This document shows, piece by piece, positions 2,386-64,000 of a DNA stretch of 64,000 nt. The notes under the pieces are model-generated. The model did no database searches and was not told the DNA's origin. It worked only from the letters and a program-made list of their open reading frames with translations. Source of the DNA: Rozella allomycis CSF55. Its lineage: Eukaryota. Numbering within the stretch: position 1 is the first letter of the stretch; each line of letters starts with the position of its first letter. The stretch spans positions 1-64,000 of the forward strand of contig KE560848.1 in assembly GCA_000442015.1 (NCBI GenBank). Direction: 5' to 3'. Position numbers and translations under genes: made by a program.

Positions 2386-3699
2386 TTACATACACTGCGT
2401 CTCCTTTAAAGACAGATAATACATGGAATATTTATCCATTCCAGTCACATCGGCATTGATTTTTACAAATGAAGGGAGCCAAGAATCATCGTTTGTCTTT
2501 CTTTTGTCAACAAACCCCTCCATTAGTACAAGGCCAGGGGCTGGTGAATGAAACTTGTCAATGTGAAAATAATGATTTTCCCAAATGAATACCCTTCTTG
2601 TTTTGATAATGCTGCTGCGTGAAGGGTCCCTCTGAGAATATAACGCCTTTTCTACTCACATATAGAGATTTACCTCATATTCTCGCGGGGTTAATGTTCT
2701 CCTTACTTCAATTGTTTGCCCATCCTTTTGATTCTTTCTTATAGTGAGTGTATAAGTGTAATAGTCACCAATTCCTCTTTTTCTTATCCTTGCTTGACTT
2801 CCATCAGTCGAAATTAGGTAATTGTGCTCAACGTGAAAATCTCTAAAACCTATTTCGCTATTCCAACTAGTTGGAAATCCCTTTAATAAGAACTTTCGCT
2901 TTCTTAAAAACTTTCCTCCCCTGCGATCTTCAAGTCCAAGTCTTAAAAGAACTGTTTCGACAACCTTTTTCAATTTTTGATCAAAAGGCGTAGAATTATC
3001 AATTACATGCAACGAAGGATGTCCATTCCAAGCTTCTAAAATTCTTTGGTCCAGGATTTTAGCCAATTCCATATTTTCTGATCTTACGCTGTTAGTTTCA
3101 TTCCCATAAAATTTTTCCGCGCCATTGGCAGCAGACTCCTATAATTCTAGTAAATAAATGAAAATACCATGTGTATTACAAAATCATACCTTTCATCCCT
3201 CAATTTCGCTTCAGCCATACTCATTTGTTGTAAGATATGAATCCAGTCCACTCGATCAACATCTATGAAAAAACATTTTACATTTAAACTACATGCGGAT
3301 GGATCCATCGTCCCTCTATCACATATTACAACCACATTTTGACCTCCAGATGCTTGACTTGCAGCTAGCTCCATGATTGAGTCTTCAATTGTAATCATAA
3401 CCTTCAATAAGTTCATTTGAAAGCTAATCTCTAAAAATAAGACAAAGTAGTAACTTACGTTGATCCTTAGTTAAGGTTGAAAATTCAACTCCAGAGCTTA
3501 AAAGAATTGTTGATGTTTCAGAGATTTTATATACTTTCCATCCCATGTTCTCCAGCATATCAATATTTCAAAGATCTTTGATAATTACCTGATAAAACTG
3601 TTTGAGCAGTAGATTTTCCGCCACACGGTCCTTTACAATGAAATCAATGAATTAATTACCTCCCGTTAAGGCTAATTTAATGAACCGGCCTTGGACCAT
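2386..3699 (-). CDS. P-loop NTPase (AAA_28-like) plus CYTH-like domain protein, TTD14-like
   Basis: The spliced N-terminus KLALTGGPCGGKST is a Walker A motif. Also present: ICDRGTMD, RYDFVIHMV, AWNGHP and the CYTH-type YL...RIRKRG...YTLT. Confidence 0.75.
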
Positions 3700-19544: not shown

Positions 19545-21650
19545 ATGAAGGAACCTGTGTCTTTAGAAGAGCTATTGAAGAAGAAAGAAGAAGAAGAACG
19601 TTTGAACGCTAAAGTAAATATTTTATACCCACTTGATAGCCTAAATATATGTCTAAAGAAGAGAGAATGAAAAGAGCACTAGAAGAGAGGAGGAGAGACG
19701 CTGAGAAGAAAAGAAATAATTTAGAAGCGTTTAAAACACAAAATGAACAAAGCAAGCTACCAGAGCCATCACCTACTTATGTTAAAAACACAATACCAGA
19801 GAAGGAGTTGCAAGCCATAAAAGCAAAGTATTTGGGGCTGGAAACTAAAAACAAACGAAGGAGATATTCAGATAGAAGATTTGTGTTTGAATGGGCGGAA
19901 CACGAGGATACATCTGTTGAATCAAATCCATTGTATGCAACGAGAAAAGATTACACGTCGTTTGGCAGGGGCCATACCGGAGGAATTGATCCCAATGAGT
20001 CAAGTGCAAATAAGGATGAATTTTACGAAAAATTAATGGATGAAAGAAGGACCGATGTAGAAAAAGAGAGAGTCAAAGAACTGGACGACATTAAAAAGAT
20101 GAAAGAAAAGAAGAGATTACGATTTGATGATCGTCATTGGACAGAAAAGCCTTTGGAAGAAATGAATTCACGAGATTGGCGTATTTTAAAGGAAGATTAT
20201 AGTATATCAACCAAAGGTGGTTCAATTTCTAATCCGCTAAGAAACTGGGATGAAGCGGAATTGAATTATAAAATAAAAAGAAAAATTTATGACTTGGGTT
20301 ATGAAGAGCCAACTCCTGTGCAAAGGCAATCGATACCGATAATTTTGAGTACCCGGGATATGATAGGGATAGCAGAAACTGGGTCTGGTAAAACTTTGGC
20401 CTTTTTGCTACCGATGATCGAGTCTATTATTAATATAAGAAAAGAAGACAACGATTCTTTTAATAATGGGCCATTTGCGTTGGTACTTGCACCAACTAGA
20501 GAATTGGCGCTTCAGATAGAGCAAGAAGCCAAAATGTTTACTGAAGCATTAAATTTAAAAACTGTAGCAGTGGTTGGTGGGCATATAATGGCAGAACAAT
20601 CGTACAATTTACGTGGAGGCGTTGATTTGTTAATTGCTACCCCTGGGCGTTTAAAAGATCTATTGGAGAGTCACGTTGTTGTTTTAAATCATTGTTATTT
20701 TGTTGTGATGGATGAAGTAACAAATTATACGAAATTAAATAGGCTGATAGAATGATTGACATGGGGTTTGAAATTGATGTAAATTTCATTCTGGACAACC
20801 TTCCCGCCTCCACCCAAAAGCCTGAAGACAAAGCAGAGGATTTAAAATTTTTAAAAAATAAACGATTTAGACAAACAACAATGTTTTCTGCTACGATGCC
20901 ACCTTCGGTTGAGAGAATGGCCAAAAAGTAATTGATCACTTATTGAAATAAAAGATATTTAAAGAAGCCTGCTGTTGTAACGATTGGAATCGCTGGAAAG
21001 GCAGTTGACAGAATTGAACAGAAAGTTGAAATGATGAAAGAAGATCGCAAATGGTATTTTTCATTATTTCTAGTTATACAAGGGATAGACTTGTTCGCAT
21101 TCTTAATGGAGGGTTTGAACCTCCAATTATTGTTTTTGTGAGACAAAAAAGGACTGTTGATTATTTGACGAGGCAATTAGAAAAACTGAATGTAATTGTT
21201 TGTGTGAAATTTAATTAGTTCAAAGTGGTTGGTTTGCATGGAGGTAAAACGCAAGATCAAAGAGAAAAAAGTTTGGATTTACTACGCAAAGGTCAAAAGA
21301 ACATTCTTATTGCCACTGATGTGGCTTCCAGAGGGATTGACATTAAAGATGTATCCCTGGTTATTAATTATGACATGAGCAAAACAATTGAAGGTAATTT
21401 CTATTCGTTACTTTAATTTGATTACACCCATAGAATTGGTCGAACTGGGCGTGCCGGAAAAGAAGGAAAAGCGATTACTTTTCTCACAAATGATGATCAA
21501 GAAACGTTTTATGATCTCAAATTAATGCTACAAGCTTCTCCTATTAGTCAGGTGCCTTCCGAGTTGAAGAATCATGAGGCTGCACGTTATAGGCCAGGAA
21601 TAACGGTAATCAAAAAGAAAAGTGAAGAAACAATTTTCAAAGATGAATAA
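19545..21650 (+). CDS. PRP28: Pre-mRNA splicing DEAD-box helicase Prp28/DDX23
   Basis: [58 protein letters not shown] across an intron, and [12 protein letters not shown]. Confidence 0.95.
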
Positions 21651-21654
21651 ATAT

Positions 21655-22386
21655 TTATTCTTTCATCGATTTAGCTGGGATTCTCGAGAGAATGGTTTTT
21701 CTTAACCCTGTAGGTCTTGTTTTTCCTTTTGTGTAACCATCCTTTGATACACAATAATTATTAACAAAACTCACGACGTCACTTTCAATTCCTTCTTTAT
21801 TACATGACAAACTTCCAAATTGATAGGCAAATTTATCTGGGTGCCTTATTGCAATACAGTTTGCTTGGTCACACATCGAAAGACATCTAAAAGGTATCAA
21901 CTCGACATCAGATTCATTATTACTTTTAATAATTAATTACCACTAGTTTTCGATGACAATATATATGAAGGTAATTCTGCATCAATATTCCCACTACTGT
22001 TGTCTCCTGGACTCATTTTCACCTCGTTAATCTTCCATTCATCGCTTTTTACAAAGTTTCTAACAATACGGCGATACAATATTTCTCCTGTTGAACATGG
22101 CTTATCCTCAACTAGATCTTCAATATCAAGGATATCTTCATTCGCACACATCGGTATTTTTTCTCGTTTCACACAAGCTAACTTGTCCTTTTCCCCTTCG
22201 TTGCATTTGGAACAAACATACAAAATATTCCGTTTTCTTTTACTCTTCTTTCTTCCAACTCTGTCGTATTTGAAAATCTGTGTAAAAATATACCTACATG
22301 ATTACAAGCCAACTTGATATAACTACAACCAAAATACTAACTAGGATATAGATATTTTGCCCAATAAGATTAAACAAGACGCCCAT
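21655..22386 (-). CDS. Hypothetical Cys-containing protein with an N-terminal TM
   Basis: A hydrophobic first exon from the ATG at 22386 joins ORF 21933-22223 by a 28-nt intron. It then joins ORF 21655-21900 in frame only via a 26-nt GT-TG intron. Confidence 0.5.
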
Positions 22387-27436: not shown

Positions 27437-29581
27437 ATGTTCTTATGGATTTTATTATCTCTAAATCTAATTAGCTCTTCCAATATCCAAAAAATATTAT
27501 TGCATGACAGCAGAGAATTGAGTAACTTGAGAAAAATCCTAGACAGAGACAGTGTAGAGTATACATTTATCGAGAACATTGATATCCATCATCAAATAAC
27601 GTATCAATTCGATTTCAATGCCCCAAGAAACATTGACCGATCTAGCTATATTAATGAAAGGTCTTTGTCTCCTTTTAATATTTCAAAACCACTTCTGCTT
27701 GAGCGCGTAAAAAGAGGCAATGAAGATCCATACTTCAAATACCAATGGAGTTATGTAACAAAATCTGTCAAATTGCATGTAGACTAATATTGGGCAATAC
27801 GATGAAAGTACCACTTCCTACGACTATGGATTAAAATCATATGCTTACCTTACAGGAAAAAACATATCAATAAGAATAATTGATGATGGATTAGACGTTT
27901 ATCATTTCGATCTAAAGCATTTCGTAAATTTCAATGCTAACAAAAATTGGTAGAATCCTGATTTAAGCTACAATGTTAACGATAAAAACTATGATTTAAT
28001 GCCCTCAGATCTGTCCATGAATCATGGAACTAGATGCGTTGGCCAAATTATTGCTTTACCAGATAACGGGTATTGTATAGTTGGTTTTGCACCTGAAGCA
28101 TCTGTTAGTTGTAAGTTTATTATTTGGTTTTATTAAGTTATAAAATTGCTCGACAAACCTCATACAGATTTTGAAGAAGCGTTTTCTATATCGTACAAAG
28201 GCCTGCATGATATCTATTCCCTGAGTTGGGGCCCACCTGATTATGGTAATTTCAGTGAAGGGCCAGGAAAGTACATGAATGATGCATTCGAACGCGCCAT
28301 AGTCCAGGGGAGAAATAAAAAAGGCTCAATAATAATAGTCGCGGCGGGAAATGGTGGAGATATTGACGATTGCAATTATGACGGTTATGTAAACGATCCG
28401 AGGGTTATTGCAGTTGGAGCAGTCATGATGAATGAAAAAAGGCCATTCTATCAAGAGCGATGCTCAGCGATGTTGATCACGGGTTATAGTGGCGGTTACA
28501 TGGCTGGAATAGTAATTGAGTTGAATTTTTAAGATATGGCAACAACTGATTTGAATGGAGGTTGTACTTTAAGTCATTCTGGCACGTCAGCAGTTGGTAA
28601 GGCATTTGATTCTTAATTAGTAGTCCCTGCGGTCTCTGCAATTATTGCAAAGTTACTAAACTTAAGGTATGGATATAAATAATATAATTTTGGCCTGATT
28701 TAACATGGAGGGATGTTCAGTACTTGCTAATTTTATCGACCAAGCAAAACGATCCGTCAAGCGCTCAATGGCAAGCAAATGCTGCGGGCTTGAAATTTCA
28801 TCCATATTATGCATTTGGAGTTTTAAAGGCGAATATTTTGTTCAACATGTCGCAAGAATGGAGCCTAGTCGGGGATCAGATAATATTAACCGAAAGTTCC
28901 TATAAGAGTTATAAAATTGCGCCTTTGTCCAAAACACAAATTTATTTCAAATTTTCTCCCAGAAAGTTCGGATTATCATGCGAGAAGATTTCAATCACAT
29001 TCTTTCTCCAGCATCCTTATCCAGGTATGCTTGAATCTACAATAATGTCACCGCATAACACATCGTCTGTAATCGCGACAAGGAGAGTAAATGATAAAAA
29101 TTATTTTGCTTCATCATGGACATTTTCTACCCCTCATTTCTGGGGCGAGTTTATTAACGGAACGTGGATATTTCAGATCATTGATGGCAGAGATAACCAT
29201 GAAGGTGACTCTGGCATAATCAAAGATATGAGCTTCCAAATATACGCCACTGATCGTTCTATTTTTTCGAGCTCATCGTATCCCAAAGATAATCAACTAG
29301 ACGTTTTCTTGGCTATTGGATTACTATGTTTTATGATAATACTAATAATTTACTCAAGATACAGGTCAAAGAAGAAAAACAATGAAGGATATAAACCATT
29401 AAATTCTAAACCAGTCAATCAAAGCCATCGAAACTCTAAAATGGTAAAATCAAAATCTCTGGCTAATATTAAACTAACCACTTCAACTAATCTAATAACA
29501 AACAAAATAAAAAAGTCAATATCAATGTTGTCAATTAATAAGAACCAATCACATTGGGTAGATATTGAAAAGCAAGGGTGA
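27437..29581 (+). CDS. KEX2: Kexin/furin-like proprotein convertase (S8 domain, P domain, TM)
   Basis: RVKR pro-cleavage site, IIDDG, HGTRC, SLSWGP, AAGNGG, HSGTSA, LTWRDVQ, HFWGE and a C-terminal TM. Confidence 0.9.
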
Positions 29582-34717: not shown

Positions 34718-37139
34718 ATGGCTGACGATTTTATTTTTACGATAGAAGAAAACGACAGTGTTCCGACTGAAGATGATATTGAGGTATGTTTTTTTTGTGA
34801 TTTGGAATTAGATTAAAAATAAGAAAAAGGATTTGAATACAGAGTTTAAATTTGAAGTTGATGAAGATGATAGTGGAGTTGGCTGGTCTATAGATAGTGT
34901 TGTGTCTGCGTTTAAAAAGAAGAATTCTATGGTAAGTATTTTGTGGGTGGTTGAAAGGTGTTGACGACCAGTTTGGATGAAAAAATCAAGCAGAGAAAAA
35001 GAGAGATGGAGATTGTGGATAATGATGATGTTGATGCGGAAGAAGAGGGTGTTGTAGAGGAAGGAGAGTTTGAGATGTCTGAAAATGAGTTTGAGGGGGT
35101 TGAAGAAGAAGAATCAGATAGTGAAGAGGAAACTGATAAAGACGATGACGATGAAGACGATGAAGAGGAAGAAGAAGAGAACGAAGACAAGGATGAATTA
35201 GATGATGAAGAAGATGATAATAAGAGTGACGAAGATGTTAGTGCCAATTCAGACTCTGAAGAAGAGATTGATGAAGAGGAGGAAGAAAGAAAGAATGCTT
35301 ATTTTGACAATGTTGATATTCATGAAGATACAGATGGGACTACATTTGCATCGTTGAATTTATCTCGCCCAATATTGAAGGCGATAACCAATATGGGATT
35401 TGCTAGGCCAACAAAGATCCAAGCGAATACTATTCCTATTGCGCTTACCGGGAAGGATATTTGTGCTAGTGCCGTTACAGGGTCTGGAAAGAGTGCAGCA
35501 TTTTTGATTCCCAGTATAGAGAGGTTGTTGTATCGACAGAAATCTATTTCCCAAGTCAGAGTTTTAGTGTTACTTCCCACGCGAGAGTTGGCTGTTCAGT
35601 GTTACCAAGTTGCAAAGACGTTGGCGCAATTCACTGATATAACGTTTGGGTTGTGTGTTGGAGGGATTAGCCCGAAAGCACAGCAGGCAGAACTGCAGAA
35701 CAGACCAGATGTTATTGTTGCTACACCTGGACGATTGATTGATATGGTTAGAAATATGCAATCGTTTTCTATTGAGAATATTGAAATTTTAGTTTTGGAT
35801 GAAGCAGATCGAATGTTGGAAGTTGGATTTAAGGCTGAATTGGAGGAGATTATCAGACTTTGCCCAAAGAGTCGCCAAACGATGCTTTTCTCAGCAACAA
35901 TGACAGACAACATTGATGATTTGATTAGACTTTCATTGAATCATCCATCTAGAGTATTTGTGGACAGTGCAACCAAAATAGCTCATAATTTAACACAAGA
36001 ATTTATTCGTATTAGAGAAAATAAAGATAATGAAAAGCCAGGGTTTCTTTTAGCTTTGTGTAAAAAGATTTACAAGAAGAAATGTATAATCTTTTTTGAT
36101 AATAAAATTGCTGCCCATCGCATGAGAATCGCTTTTGGACTTTTAGGGTTGAAAGCAGCTGAATTGCATGGAAATTTAACTCAAGCTCAAAGATTAGAAG
36201 CTTTAGATTCTTTTAAAAATAATAAAGTAGATTTCCTCCTAGCCACAGATCTAGCTGCACGTGGTTTAGATATATCTGGTGTTCAAACTGTAAAAAAAGA
36301 TCTTTTAATTCTAAAAATAGGTTATAAATTATAATATGCCAACTGATTATGCAAGATATCTTCATAGAGTTGGTCGTACTGCTCGTGGTGGTCAATCTGG
36401 TGTGTAAATATTTTCTGTTTTATTTAATTATAGATCTGTTTCTTTAATAGATGAGAAAAGTAGAAAAATATTAAAGATTGCAGTTAAAAATTCATCTCAA
36501 TCTGTGAGGAAAAGATCCATACCTTTGGAAATAATAAAAAAATATAATTCAAGATTTGATGCGATTCAATCTCAAATTTCTGATATTCTTCTTGAAGAAA
36601 AAGAAGAAAGAAAAATTCAACAAACAGAAATGCAAATAACAAAAGCTGAAAATTTAATAAAATTTCAAGATGAAATAAAGTCTAGACCAAAAAAGACTTG
36701 GTTTCAATCTGAAAAAGAAAAAGTGGCTGAAAAACGTATCTTTTTTATTTTTCTTTTAATTTTAGAACTTTCTAAAGCTGCTGCTGGTTTGGACACTCCA
36801 AAACCAAAGCGTGGCAAATTTGATGGAATGAGCCGCAAAAAGAAGAGACGCGTTCAAGCCTTGGAAGATCAAGATCAATCTGAAGACTTTAAATCCAAAA
36901 TGATCGCCCGCTCTTTGAAATTAGAAAAGAGACCAAAAAGAATGAGATTAACTGAAAAAGAAACAAGTTCAGCCCCAAAGAATTCAGTTTCAAATAAACC
37001 AAAACCTAAAAGTAAAAGCGCCTTTGGTGACGACATTGCACCATCAAAGTCAAAGAAGAGCGCCCAGGAAAAAAAGAAACCTTTCAGAAAAGGCTCCAAA
37101 AATGCTTTCAAATCAAAAGGCAGATACAAGAGACGTTAA
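34718..37139 (+). CDS. DRS1: DEAD-box RNA helicase Drs1/DDX27
   Basis: Acidic N-terminus, LNLSRPILKA, AVTGSGKS, DEAD, ELHGNLTQAQRL, HRVGRTAR, SRPKKTWF and FKSKGRYKRR. Confidence 0.95.
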
Positions 37140-37180
37140 TAAATCATTCATTTATTCTTTTAAAATGTCTTTTGCAAAAT

Positions 37181-37789
37181 TTAATTTTCTTGTGCTGCTA
37201 GATTGGGGTTCGGTTTATAAGGAGGTAACGGCTCGTCAATATACGTCTGCGTTCCTTGAATTGAAACCGTAATGTTCTCCAATGGTATGGTCTTCACAGT
37301 ATCCTTCTCCAACAATACACCATATCTCACACAAAAACCAATAATCAATAGATACACTAGATATGTCTATTCTAAATAATTGTATATTGTTACCAATGTA
37401 ATTCCTGTAGTCCCATGAAAATTATACATCAATGAAAGCGATATAAAACCAAATGTTAATAATGAAAATAGAATTCCACATACATAAAAGATTTCTTTTG
37501 ATTTATCCTATTCAACTATATAAATCTTCATACTCTTATTATTGAGCAGAGAATACCAATAGTCAATAGTAATTTCAATAATGTGTATACTAAATTATAT
37601 ATACTCTCAAATTCGATCATTATAAAAGTAAAAAACTCTATAAACTAACTGGTGATATAATTTTCAAGTTACTGCAAGATAAAATATACATATTGTAATG
37701 ATTCTTTTGTATAAAATCAGTTTGTAATTTTGGTTTGCTTGTCCAAGCATTACATCTTGATACAGTGGTGGTACAGTGTTTTCAGTCAT
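37181..37789 (-). CDS. Small 4-TM protein, tandem paralog A (not in the ORF track)
   Basis: Four exons joined by 28-, 26- and 27-nt phase-0 introns: MTENTVPPLYQDV...FIEFL...DKSKEIFYVCGILF...RYGVLLEK...LPPYKP. Confidence 0.7.
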
Positions 37790-37921
37790 CTAGATTTTGA
37801 TATTTCAAATTTCTATTTTTAACTGGCAAAAATTAGAAAATGATGTGAAACCTATTATTAAACTTCACTATAAATTTATATCCATTGGCGTTTATTAATT
37901 TATATAGCTTAATTGCAACTT

Positions 37922-38518
37922 TTACACATGCGAATTTGACATTTCCTCGTAATTTGGAAACTGCTCTTCTGACAGTTTTAACATTTGTTCTACCACGCTT
38001 TCCATAATCTGCTGTATAACTTCAGCTGTCAGACGGTGTTTCTTTATACTTTTCACACAAATGCATATTATGACAAAGTATAACATCATTTCCTTTGAAA
38101 AAATAGCAATATTCTCACAACCGGCAAAACTGTTTGTACATATGTATCACAACTCCTCCATGAAATCACAAGCTGCGCTAACACTAAAAGAATAAGTATT
38201 CCACATGAACACGCTAAATGTTTCGGTTTATTCTAGTTAAATCCAGCTTGCCATTGTACCTTAATAGTCACAAAAACGCTATATGTGTTGGCAAAAAATC
38301 TTGCTAAAGCTAGGATGATATCTGTAGAACCTTTGAAAAAATTTAATCCCACGCAAAGAAACTCTGTCAACTTTAAACTTGTGAAAATATTATAGGCTTA
38401 CAAAGATATAAACCATAAATAAATGGATAGTAATTTTGTGCGATAAGCGATATAGATTTTTATGTGGAAGAATCAGATCTTCATATCTTGGTAGCACTAT
38501 GGTTTTTCTCTCATTCAT
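37922..38518 (-). CDS. Small 4-TM protein, tandem paralog B (not in the ORF track)
   Basis: MNERKTIVLPRYEDL...LTEFL...NKPKHLACSCGILILL...FPNYEEM; three introns at positions equivalent to paralog A. Confidence 0.65.
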
Positions 38519-38716
38519 TCTCGAAAAGCCACTCACCAAAAAGTACTATAAGTAATAACAATGACATCTGCGGCAAATGTAAAAATAATGTGTTCGCAGA
38601 ATCTAATCTATGTACAAAATCCTATCAATGTTGAAAGCTTCCTGTCCAAAGCCCGGCATTAACATCATTGAATACTAAGAAGTTAAGAACTTGTTAAGAT
38701 TCAAGTCTTTGAAGAT

Positions 38717-39287
38717 TTATTCCTGATTTCCGACGTAGCCAGATTTATGTGCATTCTCAACTGAGGGCGAATTTACGTCTAGAACCGTAATAGATGATTC
38801 CGCTATCAGCGATTCGGGAATAAAATGGTCATTCTGCTTTTTTAACATTTTGCCGTAACGAAAAGAAGTTGTCGCTACAGACAATTGAATGATGCAAATC
38901 TTGTACTACTTGTTGATCAATATTTTACCCATAAATGGATTTTTACACCTTCTGTATGGAAAAATAAGATCATTAGAAGCACAAAGTCTACGAGGATCAA
39001 AATATTAAGAATTTCAGAACTTCTTATAATACCTGTATGCTTATTCTACTTGCATTACCACCAGAACTGTACCTTTATCATAAACCAAAAGAGGTACAAG
39101 CAAATAGAAATTCTTGAGATACCGAAGAATATTCGAATGGGGGTGTGAAAAAACACCAAGCCAGTAATTTCGCTAGCCTATTTATTTGCCTGAGTGTTGT
39201 TACTATAGCAAGGCACATATATGCCATAATTGTTTTTTTGTGAGCCAATAGTTCATTAATAAATCGATAATACATCAAAAGCAGCAT
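38717..39287 (-). CDS. Small 4-TM protein, tandem paralog C
   Basis: ...AYMCLAI|ASEI...FMIK|NKHTGIIRSSEIL...LW|...RYGKMLKK; same three-intron layout; start uncertain. Confidence 0.55.
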
Positions 39288-39736
39288 CTAAATTGATAAA
39301 TCGGTGTTCAGCCACATAATTGCCATCTAAAAAAAGATTAAAGATATATTCCTTTCTGATAATAATTTGCGAAAAAATAATAGAAGATAATGTCCTGTCT
39401 TTCTGTTATAATGTGGTTATTAATTGATTTCGTTCAAACATCTTCTTAGAAGTGGGATGACTCATGATATTCAATGGTAACGACAATTTCCAGGGCTCTT
39501 TAAATTAATGACAAATAATTGATAAAGATCAGAAAATAATTGTTTTGTGTGAAGAAATTTATTGTTATAATAAACTCGTCGTCCGATTTAATGAGAGCGA
39601 GACTTGTTCTACTAATATGGCGTGTCTGAAGAGAGTTTGCCGGTTTATTTGTATACTAAGAATATTGTAATAACGCAATTCGAAAATGGATATTCCAATA
39701 TTGAAATTGCTCAAAAACAAGTCCATATTTATTAAC

Positions 39737-40820
39737 TTACATAAAATAACCGGGACCACCAGGTGGTGGAAACAGATCTGGATCTGGCTCTCCGCTATAT
39801 ACTTTTACACTTAATTCTTTACCTTGAAAATGGCCCCCGTGGTCGAAGATTAGGTCTAGCGGGCCTGCCAGTTAGCGGATCGATTGGGCTAATTGGATCA
39901 AAACGAGCTCCTGGTGGAACAGCACCACTAACTATATATGCGAGGAAATAACGTACAATGGTAGTGCCGGGTTCGGTGGAAACGCAGGATCAGTAAACAT
40001 TGGATGGTTTGGGCCAACATACATGCCACCTCCTGCAGAAGGTGCCCTGAAGGGACCCATAGGATCCAAATCATTGCTTCCAATTCCATACGGATTAGGC
40101 CTAATGTGTAATGATAGGTATTATTAAGTACATTGTTGGAACACCGTAATTCGGTTCCATGAAATATGGTCTTGCAGGTGGAATGTATGAAGGCGGAGGT
40201 GGATAATTTTGACGAGCTTGACTTTGATTTGTTGACGAAGCTGCTGTTGAGCTAGATTCTTCATAACCTTCTTTGTGCAGCCCGGGTATCAACTTTTGCA
40301 ATATCTGTTCTTTTAATTTTATCATCAAGTCATATAAACAAGGAAATAAACTCACTTCTGGATTTTCTAGTCTTGATATGTCATCACGAACACATTCTGA
40401 TAATTTTAACTCGAGTGTGTTAATTTTTCCATCCTATTCATGAAACAGTAAATGAATTACTTGAATGGCATATCCATGAACGATGAATTTGTCGGATAAT
40501 TTCAAGCATTTCAAAAGAAATGTCATTGCTGATTGTGGATGCTTGTACCTAAAGGTGAATGTTTCTTGGTTATTATTCCATGTTTCCGGTAATAGGCGGA
40601 TATCTGAATTATTAGGATCAATGGGTGCTATTTAAAGAGAATTATAGCAAGTACCATTTTCTGATTCGCTATTGCCTAAAAACTGGAAACCGAGGTTAAG
40701 GAATGCAGCATGAAAGAGTAATGCTAAAGCGTCGCACTGAGACTTTAGACGGGTTTTGGACTGTGAAAGACAATTTTTGAGAGTGCCTAGGAGATTATTG
40801 CTCGAGAGTGGATTCTGCAT
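39737..40820 (-). CDS. PSMF1: Proteasome inhibitor PI31
   Basis: N-terminal DALALLFHAAFLNLGF; IGSNDLDP, GGMYVGPNHPMF, VPPGARFDPI and EPDPD. Confidence 0.9.
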
Positions 40821-50452: not shown

Positions 50453-52958
50453 TTATTCATCCAAATCTTCTTGTTCTTGCAAGCGATCATGTATATCATG
50501 CGTTGATCTGTATCGACTCCAGGTTGTCGAGTGAATGTCATTTCCTGTTTTTTGTTGTTCATAGTCATTTAATGGCCTTATCATAAAAGGAACATGAGGT
50601 GATTTTTGACCCCTTGAATAGACCAAGTCGCGCTCATTGCACAGAGTTTGATATCTATATAGCACTCTAATGTTTGGTAGGTTGGTCTTCTTAATATCTA
50701 TAAAACTATTTTTAAAACATTACCATTTCCGCGGGGACCTTCGAGGTGAAAATTGTGACCAAGCCATCTCTTTTTCATGCTTGCCTCAAATCCAGACTGA
50801 AGGACGCTGTTTCTGGAAATCTCACTCATATCAGCAGAAGATAATTTCCAAATCTTGGGTTGTAAATACAGTTTTGGATTACTTGGGCAGCTACAGAATA
50901 TTCTTCAATTAATGGTTCCTTTGTGAAATGAAATTGAAGAGGATCATCAGTAGATAGAGAAACATTTAAACCCCTTTGAAAGAATTGAGGAAACGGATTT
51001 CTTTCATACGTCAAGAAAAGAGCATTGTTGCTTAATGGTGACATTGCTATTCCAATTTGTTTTAAATAGAACAAGTATTGCAATACTGGAACTTTCCTTA
51101 ACAAAATTCCATGAGCGATAGAATGTGAAGTCAAGAAACTGCATGATAAATGATCTGTGTCCCCAGCTTCTCCGCAATGTGGCCTTAAAGTGAAGGTATC
51201 AAATATTTGAGATGAATTAAAATATTACTTAATCCTCTTGCTTTTCTTAATTGATTCAATGAGCAGATGTTAGCATACATGTAATAAATGTAATAAGAAT
51301 ATGGGGGATTCATTTTTGACGTCCACATTTTTGGTAGTGGAAATCTAGTTTATGAATCTCATACTAATAATACTTTTTATGAATTCTCCTTTCTGGTTTT
51401 GATTCATCATCGACAGAGTCGAAACCAACCACCCTTTTAAGGAAAATAGAGAGCTTTGGATTGGAAGCGGGATTCATGGAAACTTCAAAAAGGGGTTCAA
51501 ACACATCTTTCATAATCAGTTAATGCACTTTACTTGATATGAATTCTTCAAAGTTTGACAAAACTTGGCTTGATTTGTAAACACTAAATAGCCTGGGAAC
51601 CTGTACAAGCCACCTGACGTTATCGGAAACAATTTGGTTGTCACAAATCCATGCCGCCAATTTTGTCCATTCATCTTTTGATTTGCCATAAATCGATATG
51701 CGATATTCAGCCATTTGGTATTTGCTAGCCTCCAAGTCTGAAATCACCTCCTTTGTTAATTCTGCTAAATATCTCCCCTCAATATGATTATCAGTCTTTA
51801 AGAATATTTCTCTCAATCTACTTTCACCTACAGGATTATACTTTAAATTAAAATTATCGAATCTATGAAATGAATCTTTATGCGCCTATTATTTAAGCAG
51901 TAATCAAGTCTTACATGCATATCCAATGTATCTATACTTAAATCATACGCTGTCAAGTTCAAACTCTCAAATACTTGTTCCAACGTCAAATACTTGTTGT
52001 CTCTATAAATCACAATGTCCTTTCTTCATTAATTTCTTTTACTTACTTTTGGAAAAGATTTAATTTTTGATTTTATAAATCTCAATAAATGCTTCAAATT
52101 CATGCAAGACGAATGATGTACGTGAGTGTCAACTTTTCTCACATTATAGAAATCTCTATGGGGAACTCTTTTTTGCGCCCTCATTTCTTTATATTCATTT
52201 AACATTAAATAAAGATTATATTGAGATTCTAAAAACCTTAACCTTCTAAATGAAAATGATTTAGCAGGACCATCGGAAATAACGGACAGTATGAATTCAT
52301 TATCTTGATAATATTCCTTAATGGTTGGCACTTCAAACACCTGCTTCTTCTTCATGTGATCATAAATTCTAAACACTCCATCTTCATCCATTTTGTACAT
52401 CCAGTTATGTTCAAGCGATATATGTGGTAACATATCACATTTATTAATATCATACGACGCCAAACAATATGATTTCCCTCTATTCCTGGTTTGATCTTCA
52501 GCAAGGGGTGGTTCGATCTCCCAATCATCCCTGTCCTTGGGATTATCAAACTGGCTGCTCAATTTTAAATACTTATCCCTCAAATCCATGCATTTTATTA
52601 AACGGTCATATATATCTTTCACCTCTTCTGTCACTTCAAGCGTCTCTATAATTCACAAATCTATTTCGACTTACCTAATATGCTATTGTCGTCCAAGTCC
52701 AAATTTTCCATGCTCAATTCAAAATCATTTTCACCGGCCTGCATTTTTGGTGTTTGGTTCAAAAGCATTCTTATTCCTTCCTACCTCTTTGAAAATATGT
52801 TCAATTACATTTCCAATTTGTCTATCCATATGAGCCGAAAAGAATGGGGTCTGATCAGGTACCAAAAGGTCAGGCTCGCTCAAATTTATAGATGAACTGC
52901 TCTTAAATACATCATTGTCTTGATGTGCAGAAATCAATTTAGTGACTCGGTCTGTCAT
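50453..52958 (-). CDS. AMD1: AMP deaminase
   Basis: [31 protein letters not shown] and [11 protein letters not shown]. Confidence 0.97.
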
Positions 52959-53958: not shown

Positions 53959-54522
53959 ATGGAATATTCGCATATTACCCCAGTTGTCATTGCATTAATA
54001 CATAAATACAAAGAATTACGTAAAGATTATGTATGCACACGTCGAAGCAACTCAATAACCTGCAAAAAGGAAAAGGTAATTATAGAGACGATACAATCGT
54101 TGGAAAAAAGGACACGGGAAGAAAATGCCAATACAGTCAATGAATTAAAAAAGTGTTTCGCTGATAGTATTGCTTCATTAAGTACAAACTTTGACAGACA
54201 GATTCAACAAATACAAATGCAGATTACAGATATCAACGATCGTTTGATGAAATTAGAAAAGAAGGACAGCGAAGACAAATTACAATCAGATACCCAGAAA
54301 AACATTCCATTAGTTCAAGAATTGACTCAAAGCACAGAGCCTTTAGCAAAGATTAATAATTGCAGTAAAAAGAAGAAGATCGTAAGAAAAGTCAGGGTTC
54401 AAAAGACTAAAAAAGATTCCAAGAGAATAATACTAGCTCCTTCAGCTGATTTGTTAAGGGAATGCCAAGCTAATGTTCATTCAAGTGTAAATAGCTATGC
54501 ATTTTCTTCTGATGTATGGTAA
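53959..54522 (+). CDS. Hypothetical coiled-coil protein with a basic patch
   Basis: 187-aa ORF with a heptad pattern and a KKKKIVRK segment. Confidence 0.6.
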   Translation: MEYSHITPVVIALIHKYKELRKDYVCTRRSNSITCKKEKVIIETIQSLEKRTREENANTVNELKKCFADSIASLSTNFDRQIQQIQMQITDINDRLMKLEKKDSEDKLQSDTQKNIPLVQELTQSTEPLAKINNCSKKKKIVRKVRVQKTKKDSKRIILAPSADLLRECQANVHSSVNSYAFSSDVW

Positions 54523-56964: not shown

Positions 56965-59146
56965 TTAACATATGGCACCTACTACTTGATTTACAATAAA
57001 CATATGTACTTGTGAAAAAGGATTCTGATTTTGTTGAGGTTGAAATGAGTTTTGCTGAAACGGATTCGATTGATTTGCAGATCTTGGAATTGAACCATTG
57101 CTATTATTTTGTGGAACATTGGTAGTTGCATACATGGATGATGATTGGTAAGCAAAGCTTGTTTGAGCTTGATTATTAAATGAAGAGTTGTTTTGAGGAG
57201 GATTATTATTAAACAAATTATGCAAAGGGACATTTTGAGTTGCATTGACATTAGCAGATGGGAATGAGTTGAAGTTTAGATTGGCATTAATTGAATTAGA
57301 AGTGTTGAAATTGGTAGGAAGTGAATTGAAATTGTTAGACGAAAAGGGATTTGATGAAGGAGCGTTGGCGGTAAATGGATTGTTTCCCATTGTATTGTTA
57401 GCAGGTTGGTTGTTGTTGAAGAAGTTGTTATTATTGCTTGAAAAAATATTATTAGTAGCAGTAGTATTCATTCCTGAGAAATTGGAGGTCTGGGCCTGAA
57501 AAGAATTATTACTTGGCAAAGGAGGATTAGTAGGATTTAGCGCGTTGAATGGGGCCTGTGAAACCGTTTTAACTGATGGTTTCATTGGCACAAGATCTGA
57601 AAATGGATCTTTGTTAGGTGGATTGATGAATCCCTGGTTAGCAGTCGGAGCAATAAGTGGCACTGAAGGAGTCAACATATTTGAATTCACTGAATGGAAT
57701 GGTTGCATCTGGGACGAAGAAAATATATTTTGGTTGGTCGGCACTTGAGACTGATTGTTTGCGAATAGATCAAAAGGATTATTGCTGGAAATAGAAGCAG
57801 TCGGTAATGGTGCTTGTTGAATGTAATTAAGATTGTTTGGCATTGCGTTAAAATTGTTATTACTGACTTGATTGAAAGGGTTGAAATTATTTTGAACGAT
57901 AGCTTGATTACCAAAAGGATCATCTTGAAAGAATTGTTGTGTCTGACTAGTAAATGAAGACTCGACGATGGTTTGATTTTGTTGAGGTAAAAATAAATTA
58001 TCTTGTTGAGCTAATCCATAAATTATATCAAAAAATACCATGGAAATCAATTAATGCTTGTCTAGGTGGGCTTGATTGTTTTCTTGTTAATTCTTTTTGG
58101 TTACTTTCAAAGTTTTGTAAATATTCTGTTAGGCTATCAATTAAAGATGCAGGCGGCTTTATTATTTACTTCATTCACATTTACTGATTTGATGTCTGGT
58201 ATTTGTGTTGACAATCCGCTTTCAACTCTTTTAGCAACTTTAAAAAAGTCAATTATTTTATCAGTAACTTCATTAAACTGTTTGTAAAGCTCTAACGCCT
58301 TTTTAGCATCTTCCTTGGTCATTTCAAAGTATTTATCTTTTAAATTAAGAAAATGGTTTATAAGTTACCAAGTATTTTTATAACTCCTTCATTTAATGCA
58401 TGGTAAAGTTTTAATGAATCTTTAACGAGGAATTTAAAAGATTCCAAGGTAACCGCATTGTCAAGTTCATCCAAGTAATACTTTAATTTTAAGAGCATTA
58501 ACAAATTACTTTGCAATTAATCAATGCCTTCACAAGCCTATTGAGTATTTCAACGTGTTTAAACAGACCAGCAGGGATGCTCATACTTCTTAACGTTGAA
58601 GTTAAATCACCATTGTCGCGACAATAATCAATTTTCAAGTCTCTAAAGGAAAAGACTTTCTCCTCTAAATAAGCTGCATAAACTCTTATATTCTTAGCTT
58701 GTTCAACCCCTAAATTCTATCTTGTCCCTTATCATACCCGCTGGCGAACTGGTTTTATCTTTAAACGATTGCAAATTAAGCACTGTTGGTTGAGTGGCCA
58801 AATATCCAAGAACTCTATCACCAGCGCTTTCTCGTGATAAATGATGAACAAGAATTAATGCCTTGAAAACAATCTATAAAGAATTGAGTCATCTAAATAC
58901 CACCCAATTGTTCTCCTTCAATCTATCAGATATAAGTCTAAAAAGATCCGCCATTGCTACGCTTCTCGAGTTGGTTGCCACCAGAATTGCTACTATTTAG
59001 TGCGTCTATATTTTACATCGAACATGCTTGGCTTTCGGCGGAGTAATCTTTCGATTGCAGGCTTTGATCACAGCTACTTCTAAATCATTTTTAAATGCTG
59101 TAGCTGCTGTAGCCTTATCCTTTACGGAATCAAAGAAATTCGACAT
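56965..59146 (-). CDS. ANTH-domain clathrin assembly protein (AP180/PICALM/Yap180-like)
   Basis: AVIKAC...PPKAKHV, NWVIVFKALILVHHL and KYFEMTKEDAKKALELYK; N/Q-rich tail with many NPF/DPF motifs. The exact stop may be near 56980. Confidence 0.92.
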
Positions 59147-59682: not shown

Positions 59683-62153
59683 ATGATGCTTTTACGCCGC
59701 CCTATTATTAGAGAAAACATTTTGATTTTACTTAATAGATCATATTCCTCCTCCAAATGTCAATTGGGTGATGAATGGCAAAAATTGGCAAAGAAAGAGC
59801 TTCGAGGAAAGGATCCCTCGATCTTAACATGGGAAACATTGGAGGGCATTTCTGTAAAGCCGGTGTATACATCAGAAGATATTAAGAATATTGAACATGA
59901 AATACCTGGAAAGTATCCATACACAAGGGGTCCTTATGCAACTATGTATACTGTCCGCCCCTGGACAATTAGGCAATATGCTGGGTTTTCAACAGTTGAG
60001 GAGAGCAATGCTTTCTATAAGAGAAATTTAGAAGCTGGACAGCAAGGACTTTCTGTTGCATTTGATTTAGCAACACATAGAGGATACGATTCCGACCACG
60101 AGCGAGTTGTAATTATTTAACGTGCGTATCTATAAGGTAGGTGATGTAGGAATGGCAGGTGTTGCTATTGATTCTGTAGAAGACATGAAAGTAAATTTTA
60201 TTGAAAGTTGAAAAGTGATTCTATTTGATGGCATTCCTTTGAATAAGATGAGTGTTTCAATGACAATGAATGGTGCTGTTTTACCCATTTTGGCCATGTA
60301 CATCGTGGCGGCTGAAGAACAAGTAGGATTGAGATTTTTGAAGGATATAGGGCGCCAAGCAAGAAGAGTTGACTGGAACAATACAAAATGATATTTTGAA
60401 AGAATTTATGGTCCGAAATACATTTATTTATCCTCCCGAACCTTCAATGAAAATAATCGGTGATATTTTCGCATACACTTCGAAACATATGCCAAAATAC
60501 AATGCAATTTCAATATCAGGTTATCACATGCAAGAGGCAGGAGCAGATAATGCTTTAGAATTAGCGTTTACAATCTCTAATGGTTTGGAATATATTCGTA
60601 CTGGCATAAAAGCAGGAATGCATGTGGATGAATTCGCGCCTAGACTGTCATTCTTTTTTGGAATAGGAATGAATTTTTTCATGGTAAGTTCTATTAATAA
60701 ACTAGAAAGGAAATTGCAAAACTGAGAGCCGCCAGAAAGTTGTGGGCTGAATATGTTTCAAAAATGTTTGATGTCAAGAATCAAAAAAGCCTGCTTTTGA
60801 GAACGCATTGTCAAACATCCGGATGGTCATTGACTGAACAAGTATTCATTTATATATTAACGACAAAAGGATCCCTACAATAATATTATTAGAACAACTG
60901 TTGAAGCCATGGCTGCTACCCTCGGAGGCACGCAATCATTACATACCAATTCTTTTGATGAGGCAGTAGGCCTACCAACTGATTTTAGCGCCAGAATAGC
61001 TAGAAATACCCAGTTAATTTTACAAGAAGAAGCGATGATACCTAAAGTTGCGGATCCCTGGTAATTAAGAATGGTCATTTTTGCAGGGGTGGATCATACA
61101 TGATGGAAAATTTAACCGAAGAACTTTATAAAAAAGCTAAAACAATTATTGATGAAGTGGAAGAAATGGGTGGAATGGCAAAAGCCGTTGTGTCTGGAAT
61201 GCCTAAACTAAAGATTGAAGAGTCGGCAGCCAAGAGACAGGCGAAAATAGATTCTGGAGCTGGTAATTATTTGCCTTTTATTATAAAGAAACAATTGTTG
61301 GAGTTAACAAGTATCGAGTGGCAAAGGAAGAGAAAATAGAAGTTCTGCAAATTGACAATACAGAAGTGCGCAGAAAGCAAGTAGAAAGACTGGAGAAAGT
61401 TAAGAAAAATAGAAATGAAGAGAATGCCAAGAAAATTTTAGAAAGAATTACAAAGGCGGCAAAATCAGGTGAAGAGAATCTACTAAGTTTGGCAATTGAG
61501 GCATCAAGGGCACGATGTACCGTAGGAGAAATTTCATTGGCGCTAGAAAATGTAAAAAATAATTTTGCTATACATGTTAGGTGTGGGGACGCCATCAACC
61601 AGACATTCGTGTTGTTAGTGGTGCCTACAAAAATGAATACGGAGAATCAGAAGAAATTAAGAAGGCCATGAAAAGAGTAGAAGAATTTAATAATAAATAT
61701 GGGAGACGCCCCAGAATACTTGTTGCTAAAATGGGACAAGATGGGCACGACCGCGGAGCAAAGGTTATTGCCACTGGATTGAGTGATCTTGGATTTGATG
61801 TTGATGTAGGTCCATTGTTTCAGACACCATCTGAAGTAGCAAGGCAGGCGATTGATGCGGATGTACATGTTATTGGAGTTAGCTCGCAAGCAGCCGGGCA
61901 CAAGTCTCTTGTACCAGCATTAATTAAAGAGCTTGAAAAGGAAGGTATAAATGATAAGATTGTCGTTTGCGGTGGTGTTATTCCACCTCAAGACTATGAA
62001 TTTTTGTACAAGGTTGGAGTAGCAGCTATTTTTGGTAGACTTATCTTTGAGTGAATAATTATAGGGCCTGGAACTAAATTACCTGAAGCTGCAATAGCGG
62101 TGGTTCAAGCAATTGAAGAGAAAATATCCAAGATTCCAAATTATGTAGTGTAA
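59683..62153 (+). CDS. MMUT: Methylmalonyl-CoA mutase (adenosylcobalamin-dependent)
   Basis: [38 protein letters not shown] and the B12-binding DGHDRG...SSQAAGH...GG; presequence-like N-terminus. Confidence 0.97.
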
Positions 62154-62271
62154 TAAAATGAAGATGTTTGGTTATTTGACATTTTTAGTATTTTTTAGTG
62201 TATTTGTGATTTAATTCCAATTCTTTTATCATTCTAGAAAATTCCCTTTTAGAATAACCCTGGTTTAACCA

Positions 62272-64000
62272 ATGACCGTTAGTGTAGTACCACCAGTCCA
62301 AGTACCCAAGACAAAGACATTTCAAGATAAAGACAAGCCATCAGATGTAAGAAACAGCAACATTATGGCAGGCAAAGGTAAGGGGTGAAATTTTGATAAA
62401 AATAGGTAAGAATAAAATTGGAAAGAGAGGTAGCTATTGCTGATGCGGTAAGAACCAGTTTGGGTCCTAGAGGAATGGATAAGATGGTAATTGAAAATAA
62501 GTGAAAGGAGTAGATCCAAAAAGCCAATCAAGAGGTTGTTATATCGAATGACGGAGCGACGATATTGAAGGAGATGAGTGTTATTCATCCAGCTGCGAAG
62601 ATGATTGTAGAATTGTCAGCTGCTCAAGATGTGGAGGCCGGTGATGGCACTACCAGTGTTGTTGTGTTGGCTGGAAGTATGTTGAATGCGTGTGAAAAAT
62701 TGTTGAAAAAGGGTATTCACCCATCTGTTATTGCTGATTCTTTTATGAAAGCTTCGTACAAGGCAGTTGAGATTGTAAAGGAGATGAGTATTCCAGTGAC
62801 GTTGGATGATAGAGAGTCGTTGTTGAGGTCAGCGACGACATCATTGAACTCTAAGGTTGTGTCTCAGTATTCATCGGTGTTTGCACCTATTGCTGTAGAT
62901 GCAGTTTTGAAGGTGATTGATCCAAAGACAGCGAATAATGTTGATTTGAAGGATATAAGGTAATAATGTAGCAGCATGATAATAATTAGGTAATATGCTT
63001 GAAATTAGATGATGAAAGATGTGTTCAAAAGTTGGGAGGGACTATTGATGATACAGAGTTGATTAATGGACTTGTGTTGACTCAAACAGTCACCAAGTCA
63101 GCCAATGGGCCAACTAGAATGGAAAAGGCAAAGATTGGATTAATTCAATTTCAATTGTCACCACCAAAGCCAGATATGGACAATACAATTATTGTTAATG
63201 ATTATCGCCAAATGGATCGTATTTTGAAAGAAGAAAGAAATTATCTCTTAAATATTTGTAAAAAGATTAAGAAGAGTGGCTGCAACGTTCTTTTGATACA
63301 AAAAAGTATTTTGCGTGATTCAGTCACTGATCTCTCTTTACATTTTCTTTCTAAATTGAAGATTATGGTTATCACTGATATTGAAAGAGATGAAATTGAA
63401 TTTATTTCTAAAACTACTGGATGCAAACCAATTGCTGATATTGATTCTTTCACTGAAGATAAACTTGGCTACGCTGATCTTATAGAAGAAGTTCATGAAC
63501 ATGGATCTAGAATCGTTAAATTGACTGGATTAAAGAATCAAAACACTGGTATTCTATTTAATTCTATTTCAAATAGTTTCTGTTTTAATTAGAGGTGCAA
63601 ACCATCTCGTTTTAGAAGAAGCTGAACGTTCCCTTCATGACGCCTTGTGTGTTATCCGCTGTCTAGTCAAGAATAGAGCTCTTGTTGCTGGTGGTGGTGC
63701 TCCTGAAACTAGCATTTCTCACAAACTGTTAGAATACTCTAAAACTCTCACGGGAATGCAAGCTTATTGTTTTGAAGCCTATGCTGAAGCCTTTGAAGTT
63801 ATTCCTTACACTTTGGCTGAAAACGCTGGTCTTCGTCCTATTTCTATCGTCACTGAATTAAGAAATAGACATGCTAAAGGCCAAGTTAATTCTGGTATCA
63901 ATGTCCGCAAAGTAATATTCCTTTTTAATTAAAACAAAAGGGCACAATCACCAACATCCTCGAAGAAAATGTAGTTCAACCTTTACTAGTCACCACTAGC
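62272..64000 (+). CDS. CCT4: Chaperonin CCT subunit delta, 3' end runs off the window
   Basis: [48 protein letters not shown] and [10 protein letters not shown]. Confidence 0.97.

What the first reader, a model, noticed from the sequence alone, without database searches (positions are those of the whole stretch)
62378..62433. CCT4 intron 1 is two back-to-back 28-nt introns with a zero-length exon
Seen in the sequence: GTAAGGGGTGAAATTTTGATAAAAATAG (62378-62405) is followed directly by GTAAGAATAAAATTGGAAAGAGAGGTAG (62406-62433). Both must be removed to give [15 protein letters not shown]. The total of 56 nt is twice the local intron size, with TAG|GTAAG exactly at the midpoint. Recursive splicing is known mainly from very long animal introns. 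Inference: a length-restricted spliceosome removes longer introns in two ratchet steps, and a half-spliced RNA would be frameshifted.
Basis: partly seen in the sequence, partly recalled or inferred. Interest (0 to 1): 0.85.

Follow-up and report, generated by a model that had tools for sequence, protein, structure and literature searches.

The report
Two abutting mini-introns in Rozella CCT4
In the chaperonin gene CCT4 of the fungal parasite Rozella allomycis, two double-length interruptions each look like a pair of normal 28-30-base introns placed end to end, which suggests they are cut out in two steps, though no RNA data were available to prove it.

Summary
Positions 62378-62405 and 62406-62433 are two GTAAG...TAG units of 28 nt each. 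All 56 nt must be removed to give a CCT4 N-terminus that aligns without gaps to fungal orthologues.

The window comes from Rozella allomycis CSF55. I also found a second case in the same gene, 62960-63018, made of 30 + 29 nt joined at TAG|GTAAT.

My intron census of the 64-kb window gives 113 core introns of 24-33 nt, with a mode of 28. I inspected every predicted intron over 33 nt. Each was coding read-through, lay in a spurious gene model, was left unresolved as a stop-free in-frame stretch, or shortened to 26-29 nt. The only exceptions are these two.

Their inner splice sites score as well as real ones (72nd-98th percentile). Interior shuffles rarely recreate such a midpoint (0.3-2.7% per intron).

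The best reading is two abutting mini-introns around a zero-length exon, removed by two ordinary splicing reactions. This could not be tested: no usable RNA run exists here, no whole genome is held, and no close relative was found.

Recursive splicing through zero-length exons is already documented in flies, vertebrates, S. pombe and Cryptococcus. This would therefore be a new, very small variant of a known kind, not a new mechanism. The "length-restricted spliceosome" idea is plausible but unproven.

The parts
62272..62377 (+). CCT4 exon 1 (ATG at 62272; ends in phase 1 after ...MAGK + G)
   Evidence: The translation aligns to the N-termini of fungal CCT4 orthologues. The public model P0001 skips this exon.
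62378..62405 (+). Unit 1a, a 28-nt mini-intron (GTAAGG...AATAG)
   Evidence: The outer donor scores at the 10th percentile and the inner acceptor at the 98th percentile of 108 core AG introns.
62405..62406 (+). Zero-length exon: acceptor TAG directly followed by donor GTAAGA
62406..62433 (+). Unit 1b, a 28-nt mini-intron (GTAAGA...GGTAG)
   Evidence: The inner donor scores at the 72nd percentile and the outer acceptor at the 32nd.
62434..62486 (+). CCT4 exon 2 (..[18 protein letters not shown])
   Evidence: The PDB CCT4 alignment starts here, at human residue 41.
62487..62513 (+). Intron 2, an ordinary 27-nt intron
62514..62959 (+). CCT4 exon 3
62960..62989 (+). Unit 3a, a 30-nt mini-intron (GTAATA...AATTAG)
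   Evidence: Site scores are at the 70th percentile (donor) and 80th (inner acceptor).
62990..63018 (+). Unit 3b, a 29-nt mini-intron (GTAATA...TGAAAG). With 3a it forms a second composite of 59 nt.
   Evidence: Removing all 59 nt gives [13 protein letters not shown], with no gap at the junction in 16 of 16 orthologues.
63019..63548 (+). CCT4 exon 4
   Evidence: (100% identity to P0001).
63549..63576 (+). Intron 4, 28 nt
63577..63911 (+). CCT4 exon 5
63912..63940 (+). Intron 5, 29 nt (AAG acceptor)
63941..64000 (+). CCT4 exon 6, cut by the end of the window

Best explanation
Each of the two long interruptions of Rozella allomycis CCT4 (56 nt at 62378-62433; 59 nt at 62960-63018) is a composite of two complete mini-introns of the species' normal size, placed end to end. 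The acceptor of the first touches the donor of the second, leaving a zero-length exon.

The most likely mechanism is two ordinary, consecutive splicing reactions. Splice sites pair across the normal distance of about 28 nt. One unit is removed, and the remaining unit is still an intact intron that a second reaction removes. Either order gives the same mRNA. An RNA with only one unit removed carries an early stop codon.

Shown here: the anatomy, the need to remove all of it, the narrow local intron size, and the quality of the inner sites. Inferred: that the inner sites are really used, and in what order.
For: (1) Both composites must be removed whole to match orthologues. Half-removal gives early stops.

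(2) Intron size in the window is narrow. 113 of 140 higher-confidence predicted introns are 24-33 nt, with a mode of 28.

(3) I inspected all 24 predicted introns over 33 nt:
- 6 are coding read-through. Four are confirmed: three by Pfam (GH47, RING, cyclophilin) and one by PDB homology (AMP deaminase, 51241-51278).
- 4 shorten to 27-29 nt. Two of these are confirmed by PDB homology.
- 11 lie in weak, overlapped or spurious gene models.
- 2 are stop-free, in-frame stretches left unresolved.
- 1 is the CCT4 59-nt piece.

(4) A strict scan of both strands for unit|unit patterns finds 2 hits, exactly the two CCT4 composites.

(5) Inner sites score at the 72nd-98th percentile of real sites. Interior shuffles seldom recreate them.

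(6) No hairpin could shorten the effective length (z-scores 0.38 and 0.41).

(7) The same mechanism has been demonstrated in other fungi.
Against: No RNA evidence at all. The only listed run held no Rozella transcript over the site.

There are only two cases, both in one gene of one 64-kb window. No whole genome was available for a census.

Whole-window shuffles give 2 or more bare patterns in 8% of trials.

The mini-introns show no branch-point consensus, so I could not check that each unit has its own branch site.

My intron set is ab initio and was built with a mild length penalty. When introns up to 500 nt are allowed, 9 further unverified 'introns' of 83-463 nt appear. These look like gene merges but are not disproved.

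A Rozella RPL7 intron said to carry a snoRNA (PMC8476143 passage) would imply that longer introns can be spliced in one piece.
Confidence: 0.6

Rival explanations
1. Each piece is a single 56-nt or 59-nt intron removed in one reaction from the outer donor to the outer acceptor. The inner AG|GT pair would be a relic or a cryptic site used rarely or never.
For: The outer sites are valid GT...AG sites. The public annotation treats the 59-nt piece as one intron. Rozella may splice some longer introns (PMC8476143 passage; unverified long candidates).
Against: The inner acceptors score higher than the outer ones, at the 98th and 80th percentile against the 32nd and 40th. They lie at the modal distance from the outer donors. 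No other verified intron in the window exceeds about 33 nt. Chance seldom produces such midpoints, and here it would have had to do so twice in one gene.
Confidence: 0.25
2. Both routes are used, and partial splicing is a regulatory, unproductive outcome. Half-spliced CCT4 RNA would carry an early stop and be degraded.
For: All four half-spliced forms have early stops. Splicing linked to decay is described in S. pombe (passage).
Against: Nothing here speaks for regulation. Early stops in retained introns are expected for any short intron.
Confidence: 0.1
3. The gene model is wrong and there is no zero-length exon. One option is a 25-nt intron at 62347-62371, a 34-nt exon, and then the 28-nt unit 1b, which is the parse my predictor chose. 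The other is the public fused model.
For: The dynamic-programming predictor, which cannot place zero-length exons, chose this parse. The public model P0001 uses a 261-nt intron, 62150-62410.
Against: The alternative parse replaces the conserved [10 protein letters not shown] with [11 protein letters not shown], whereas orthologues read (E)VRxSNIxAAKA. The public model fuses methylmalonyl-CoA mutase to CCT4 and loses the CCT4 N-terminus. Its CCT4 part starts only at human residue 41.
Confidence: 0.03

Closest known systems
Zero-nucleotide-exon recursive splicing at ratchet points in Drosophila and vertebrate long introns (Burnette 2005, cited in PMC6616335; Duff et al., abstract in listing 10.1101/006163; Sibley 2015, cited in 10.1101/224170)
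   Same: A splice acceptor is directly followed by a splice donor inside an intervening sequence, so the sequence can be removed piecewise and leaves nothing behind.
   Different: Those introns are kilobases to hundreds of kilobases long. Here the whole piece is 56-59 nt and each part is the species' ordinary intron size. Use of the inner sites is not shown at the RNA level here.
Zero-length exons in fungi: the S. pombe SPNCRNA.445 336-nt intron (10.1101/226894, passages read) and the C. neoformans BOT1 375-nt intron, split 210+165 (10.1101/224170, passages read)
   Same: [quoted passage not shown] The composite is longer than the species norm.
   Different: Those cases were proven by spliceosome profiling, and their parts are several times the typical intron length. 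Here the evidence is sequence only, the parts equal the modal length, and there are two composites in one essential protein-coding gene.
Stwintrons (spliceosomal twin introns) and 'complex intervening sequences' of Ascomycota (PMC6616335 and PMC7138796, passages read)
   Same: A fungal intervening sequence made of two U2-type units excised by consecutive standard reactions. Those authors name 'abutting U2 introns' as the other class of complex intervening sequence.
   Different: In a stwintron the inner intron interrupts the donor, branch site or acceptor of the outer one, which forces the order. Here no signal is interrupted and both units are complete as they stand.
Genomes with uniformly tiny introns, such as Paramecium, Stentor and chlorarachniophyte nucleomorphs (recalled, not looked up)
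   Same: A very narrow intron length distribution with weak internal signals.
   Different: I know of no report of end-to-end doubled introns in them. This rests on recall plus the searches named under Tried and rejected.

Membership tests
Recursive splicing via a zero-length exon (abutting U2 introns) | An acceptor is immediately followed by a donor inside the intervening sequence | tested here: met
   TAG|GTAAGA at 62405/62406 and TAG|GTAATA at 62989/62990.
Recursive splicing via a zero-length exon (abutting U2 introns) | Each part is by itself a plausible intron for the organism (donor, acceptor, length) | tested here: met
   The parts are 28, 28, 30 and 29 nt against a core range of 24-33 nt. 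All eight sites are at or above the 10th percentile of 108 core introns.
Recursive splicing via a zero-length exon (abutting U2 introns) | Each part has its own branch site | tested here: inconclusive
   No branch-point consensus emerges from the 113 core introns, so there is nothing to test against.
Recursive splicing via a zero-length exon (abutting U2 introns) | RNA intermediates, junction reads or lariats exist for the parts | not testable with these tools
   One RNA run was listed. When laid, it gave only 21-41-nt pieces from other organisms.
Recursive splicing via a zero-length exon (abutting U2 introns) | The inner site pair is conserved in relatives | not testable with these tools
   The best of the 80 loci kept from the metagenome scan is 70% identical at the protein level. 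None is a close Rozella relative.
Stwintron (sensu stricto) | An inner intron interrupts the donor, branch element or acceptor of the outer intron | tested here: not met
   Both units have intact GTA... donors and [T/A]AG acceptors before any splicing.
Ordinary single U2 intron of this genome | Length lies within the species' distribution | tested here: not met
   The pieces are 56 and 59 nt, against 113 core introns of 24-33 nt. No other verified intron over 33 nt was found in the window.
CCT4 / TCP-1 delta chaperonin gene | Sequence homology to CCT delta over the whole readable length | tested here: met
   Fungal T-complex delta proteins are 76-84% identical over exon 4. PDB CCT4 chains hit at E about 1e-215.

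The most novel reading that the evidence does not exclude
Rozella's spliceosome works like a ruler. It pairs a GTA donor with an acceptor about 27-29 nt downstream, and it tolerates non-AG acceptors. Three TG acceptors were verified by homology in this window. Any longer intervening sequence must then be built from about 28-nt modules joined at zero-length exons. On this reading, intron lengths genome-wide would be quantised at about 28 and about 56 nt.
Probability: 0.2. Interest if true: 0.8.

Novelty: new variant of a known kind. Interest (0 to 1): 0.5.

Why it matters
If RNA data confirm it, these would be by far the smallest recursively spliced introns known. They would show that a spliceosome tuned to one short length handles a longer gap by chaining standard units. 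That bears on two questions: how splice sites are paired in genomes with tiny introns, and how introns shrink on the evolutionary road from fungi to the nearly intron-free Microsporidia.

There is also a practical point. Gene finders and the public annotation mis-handle this locus and neighbouring ones, so gene models for this reference genome of an early-diverging lineage need tandem units and TG acceptors built in.

Tried and rejected
RNA test. The look-up of sequencing runs was unreachable three times. It then listed one RNA run, X1, holding next to none of the words. Read laying was unreachable once and then placed 9 contigs as 21-41-nt pieces with mismatches, with none across either composite. 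No RNA holder was listed, so nothing can be concluded either way.

Whole genome. None is held for this window, so the genome-wide test for a central AG|GT could not be run.

Close relatives. One metagenome scan with exon 3 kept 80 loci. The best is 70% identical, so none is a Rozella relative.

First gene-finder runs. With a flat intron penalty the iteration diverged, producing hundreds of false long introns. I replaced it with fixed site models and a mild length penalty.

Other ideas tested and rejected:
- Hairpin shortening of the long pieces.
- Origin by tandem duplication or an introner family. The halves resemble each other no more than random intron pairs do (77th and 68th percentile), and they have no near-copies among the 113 core introns.
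- Three-unit composites: none at strict or relaxed thresholds.
- A relaxed scan for two-unit composites gave one further place, 1201-1271 on the minus strand. It is open in frame and is probably coding.

Literature. Searches listed no paper on abutting mini-introns or TG acceptors in Rozella. I saw listings and the passages named, not whole papers. The Rozella genome paper is not held. PMC5701793 does not contain the word 'intron'. Supplementary tables such as Table S7 of PMC8042348, with per-species intron medians, were not seen and may hold Rozella intron statistics.

Full report
**What is there.** 62378-62405 (GTAAGG...AATAG) is followed directly by 62406-62433 (GTAAGA...GGTAG), and each is 28 nt.

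The gene starts at ATG 62272. Its exons in the window are 62272-62377, 62434-62486, 62514-62959, 63019-63548, 63577-63911 and 63941-64000. Exon 4 is 100% identical to a public protein of Rozella allomycis CSF55. It is 76-84% identical to T-complex delta subunits of many fungi. PDB CCT4 chains match at E about 1e-215. The organism uses the standard code, and the upstream gene ends in TAA TAA.

**Both units must be removed.** I aligned the spliced model with 16 fungal orthologues, picked from the 120 returned. There is no gap at junction 1 (..[19 protein letters not shown]) in 15 of 16; the sixteenth has an aberrant N-terminus. There is no gap at the junction of the long third interruption in 16 of 16. 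Removing only one unit gives a stop within a few codons in all four possible half-spliced forms.

**A second case in the same gene.** The third interruption, 62960-63018 (59 nt), splits into GTAATA...AATTAG (30 nt) and GTAATA...TGAAAG (29 nt) at TAG|GTAAT. So 2 of the 5 interruptions of CCT4 visible in the window are doubles. The other three are 27, 28 and 29 nt.

**Local intron size.** No annotation or genome was available, so I wrote a small gene finder: a three-periodic Markov coding model, splice-site matrices, and dynamic programming on each strand.
- A first version with a flat intron penalty diverged.
- With fixed site models it settled on 167 introns. The mode was 28 nt and 122 fell within 23-33 nt.
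- In higher-confidence genes, 113 of 140 predicted introns are 24-33 nt.
- Donors read GTA[A/T], acceptors read [T/A]AG, and no branch-site motif stands out.
- This fits published remarks that Rozella introns are about 30 nt (PMC6349667 passage) and a lowest fungal median of 29 bp in a survey that includes Rozella (PMC8042348 passage; the table itself was not seen).

**Are there single long introns?** I went through all 24 predicted introns over 33 nt.
- Six are coding sequence read as intron. Four are confirmed: three lie inside a Pfam match (GH47, RING, cyclophilin) and one is confirmed by PDB homology (AMP deaminase, 51241-51278). The other two I recognised from recalled family motifs in continuous ORFs.
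- Four shorten to 27-29 nt. Two of these are proven by homology (see the TG acceptor section below).
- Eleven lie in weak, overlapped or spurious gene models.
- Two are stop-free, in-frame stretches that I could not resolve (54031-54075; 57474-57512 on the minus strand).
- One is the CCT4 59-nt piece.
- The 56-nt piece was mis-parsed by the predictor, which cannot place a zero-length exon. It chose a 25-nt intron at 62347-62371 instead. That parse destroys the conserved VRxSNIxAxKA motif, so I reject it.
- When introns up to 500 nt are allowed, nine more of 83-463 nt appear. They look like merges of neighbouring genes, but I could not disprove them.

**Is the midpoint more than chance?**
- A strict scan of both strands for unit|unit patterns (units of 22-34 nt, all four sites at or above the 10th percentile of real sites) finds two hits. 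They are exactly the two CCT4 composites.
- The inner sites are good. They score at the 98th and 72nd percentile in the first composite and at the 80th and 75th in the second.
- Shuffling each interior 100,000 times recreates such a midpoint in 2.7% and 0.9% of trials (own composition), or 0.4% and 0.3% (typical intron composition).
- Against this, whole-window shuffles give 2 or more bare patterns in 8% of 200 trials. The weight lies in the coincidence with boundaries that homology requires, not in the count.
- A relaxed scan with a coding-context filter adds only one place, which is open in frame and probably coding.
- No three-unit composites exist in the window.

**Other explanations tested.**
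- Neither long piece folds better than shuffles (z-scores 0.38 and 0.41). A hairpin that shortens the effective length is therefore unlikely.
- The halves resemble each other no more than random intron pairs, and no near-copies occur among the other introns. This argues against recent tandem duplication or an introner family.
- Two metagenome CCT4 loci (L022, L025), among 26 of 80 loci examined, carry an intron at the very same codon and phase as intron 1. The position is therefore old. This fits an ancestral intron that acquired inner sites, or a second unit gained beside an old one. It does not tell the two apart.

**Mechanism.** The best-supported reading is two consecutive ordinary splicing reactions on abutting mini-introns. 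Sites would pair across the usual distance of about 28 nt. Either unit can go first, because neither interrupts a signal of the other.

This is inferred, not shown. The only RNA run offered held no Rozella transcript over the site.

The stronger claim, that the spliceosome cannot remove more than about 33 nt at once, rests on one window. It is weakened by a passage implying that Rozella keeps a snoRNA-bearing RPL7 intron (PMC8476143).

**Comparison with what is known.** Acceptor|donor 'ratchet points' with zero-nucleotide exons are established for very long Drosophila and vertebrate introns (listing of 10.1101/006163; citations). They have also been demonstrated in fungi:
- a 336-nt S. pombe intron (10.1101/226894);
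- the 375-nt BOT1 intron of C. neoformans, split 210+165 (10.1101/224170).

The stwintron literature names 'abutting U2 introns' as a class of complex intervening sequence (PMC6616335). The Rozella pieces are not stwintrons, because no splice signal is interrupted.

What is new here is the scale and the setting. The units equal the modal intron size of a tiny-intron genome, the composites are only 56-59 nt, and there are two of them in one essential gene. None of the searches listed a paper describing this.

**TG acceptors, seen along the way.** Three mini-introns end in TG instead of AG. In each case the flanking exons align to consecutive residues of solved homologues.
- Methylmalonyl-CoA mutase, 60191-60217.
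- PRP28/DDX23, 21394-21420.
- AMP deaminase, 51200-51228 on the minus strand.

Four more candidates came from the predictor once TG was allowed.

**Errors in the public model, also seen along the way.** The public model P0001 removes 57 nt at 60191-60247 and so loses ten conserved residues. It also fuses the mutase to CCT4 through a false 261-nt intron, 62150-62410.

**Verdict.** The two-step reading is the most likely one (about 0.6) but has not been tested at the RNA level. It would be a new, very small variant of a known mechanism.

Noticed in passing
60191-60217 (+); 21394-21420 (+); 51200-51228 (-); candidates 28512-28538 (+), 28667-28692 (+), 3561-3588 (-), 21915-21940 (-): These are mini-introns of 26-29 nt that begin with GTA but end in TG rather than AG. 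For the first three, the flanking exons align to consecutive residues of solved homologues: methylmalonyl-CoA mutase, DDX23/PRP28 and AMP deaminase. The other four come from the predictor only. One literature search listed no report of this for Rozella.
   Followed up: partly
62150-62410 (+): The public protein model (P0001, 1233 aa) fuses methylmalonyl-CoA mutase to CCT4 through a false 261-nt intron. That intron ends inside the donor of unit 1b. The model skips CCT4 exon 1 and reads 'IKLEREV' through unit 1b.
   Followed up: yes
60191-60247 (+): The public model removes 57 nt here and loses [10 protein letters not shown], which is conserved in human and bacterial mutases. The true intron is the first 27 nt.
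   Followed up: yes
L022:1150-1570 and L025:100-220 (metagenome CCT4 loci): Unrelated eukaryotic CCT4 genes, about 63% identical, have an intron at the same codon and phase as Rozella intron 1. In L022 it is roughly 385 nt long. Both apparently have another intron after GMDKM, as Rozella intron 2 does. These intron positions are therefore old.
   Followed up: partly
54031-54075 (+) and 57474-57512 (-): These are stop-free, in-frame GT...AG stretches of 45 and 39 nt inside ORFs that have no Pfam match. I could not settle whether they are coding or introns.
   Followed up: partly
56968-58050 (-): A 361-residue open frame that is extremely rich in N, Q, S, F and P (for example ...NNNFFNNNQPANN...), with no Pfam family. 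It is a low-complexity protein of unknown role.
   Followed up: no
37000-40000: A stretch with low G+C (0.30 at 36001-38000). Here the predictor gives only weak models, and it chains 300-400-nt 'introns' when long introns are allowed. The content is unclear.
   Followed up: no
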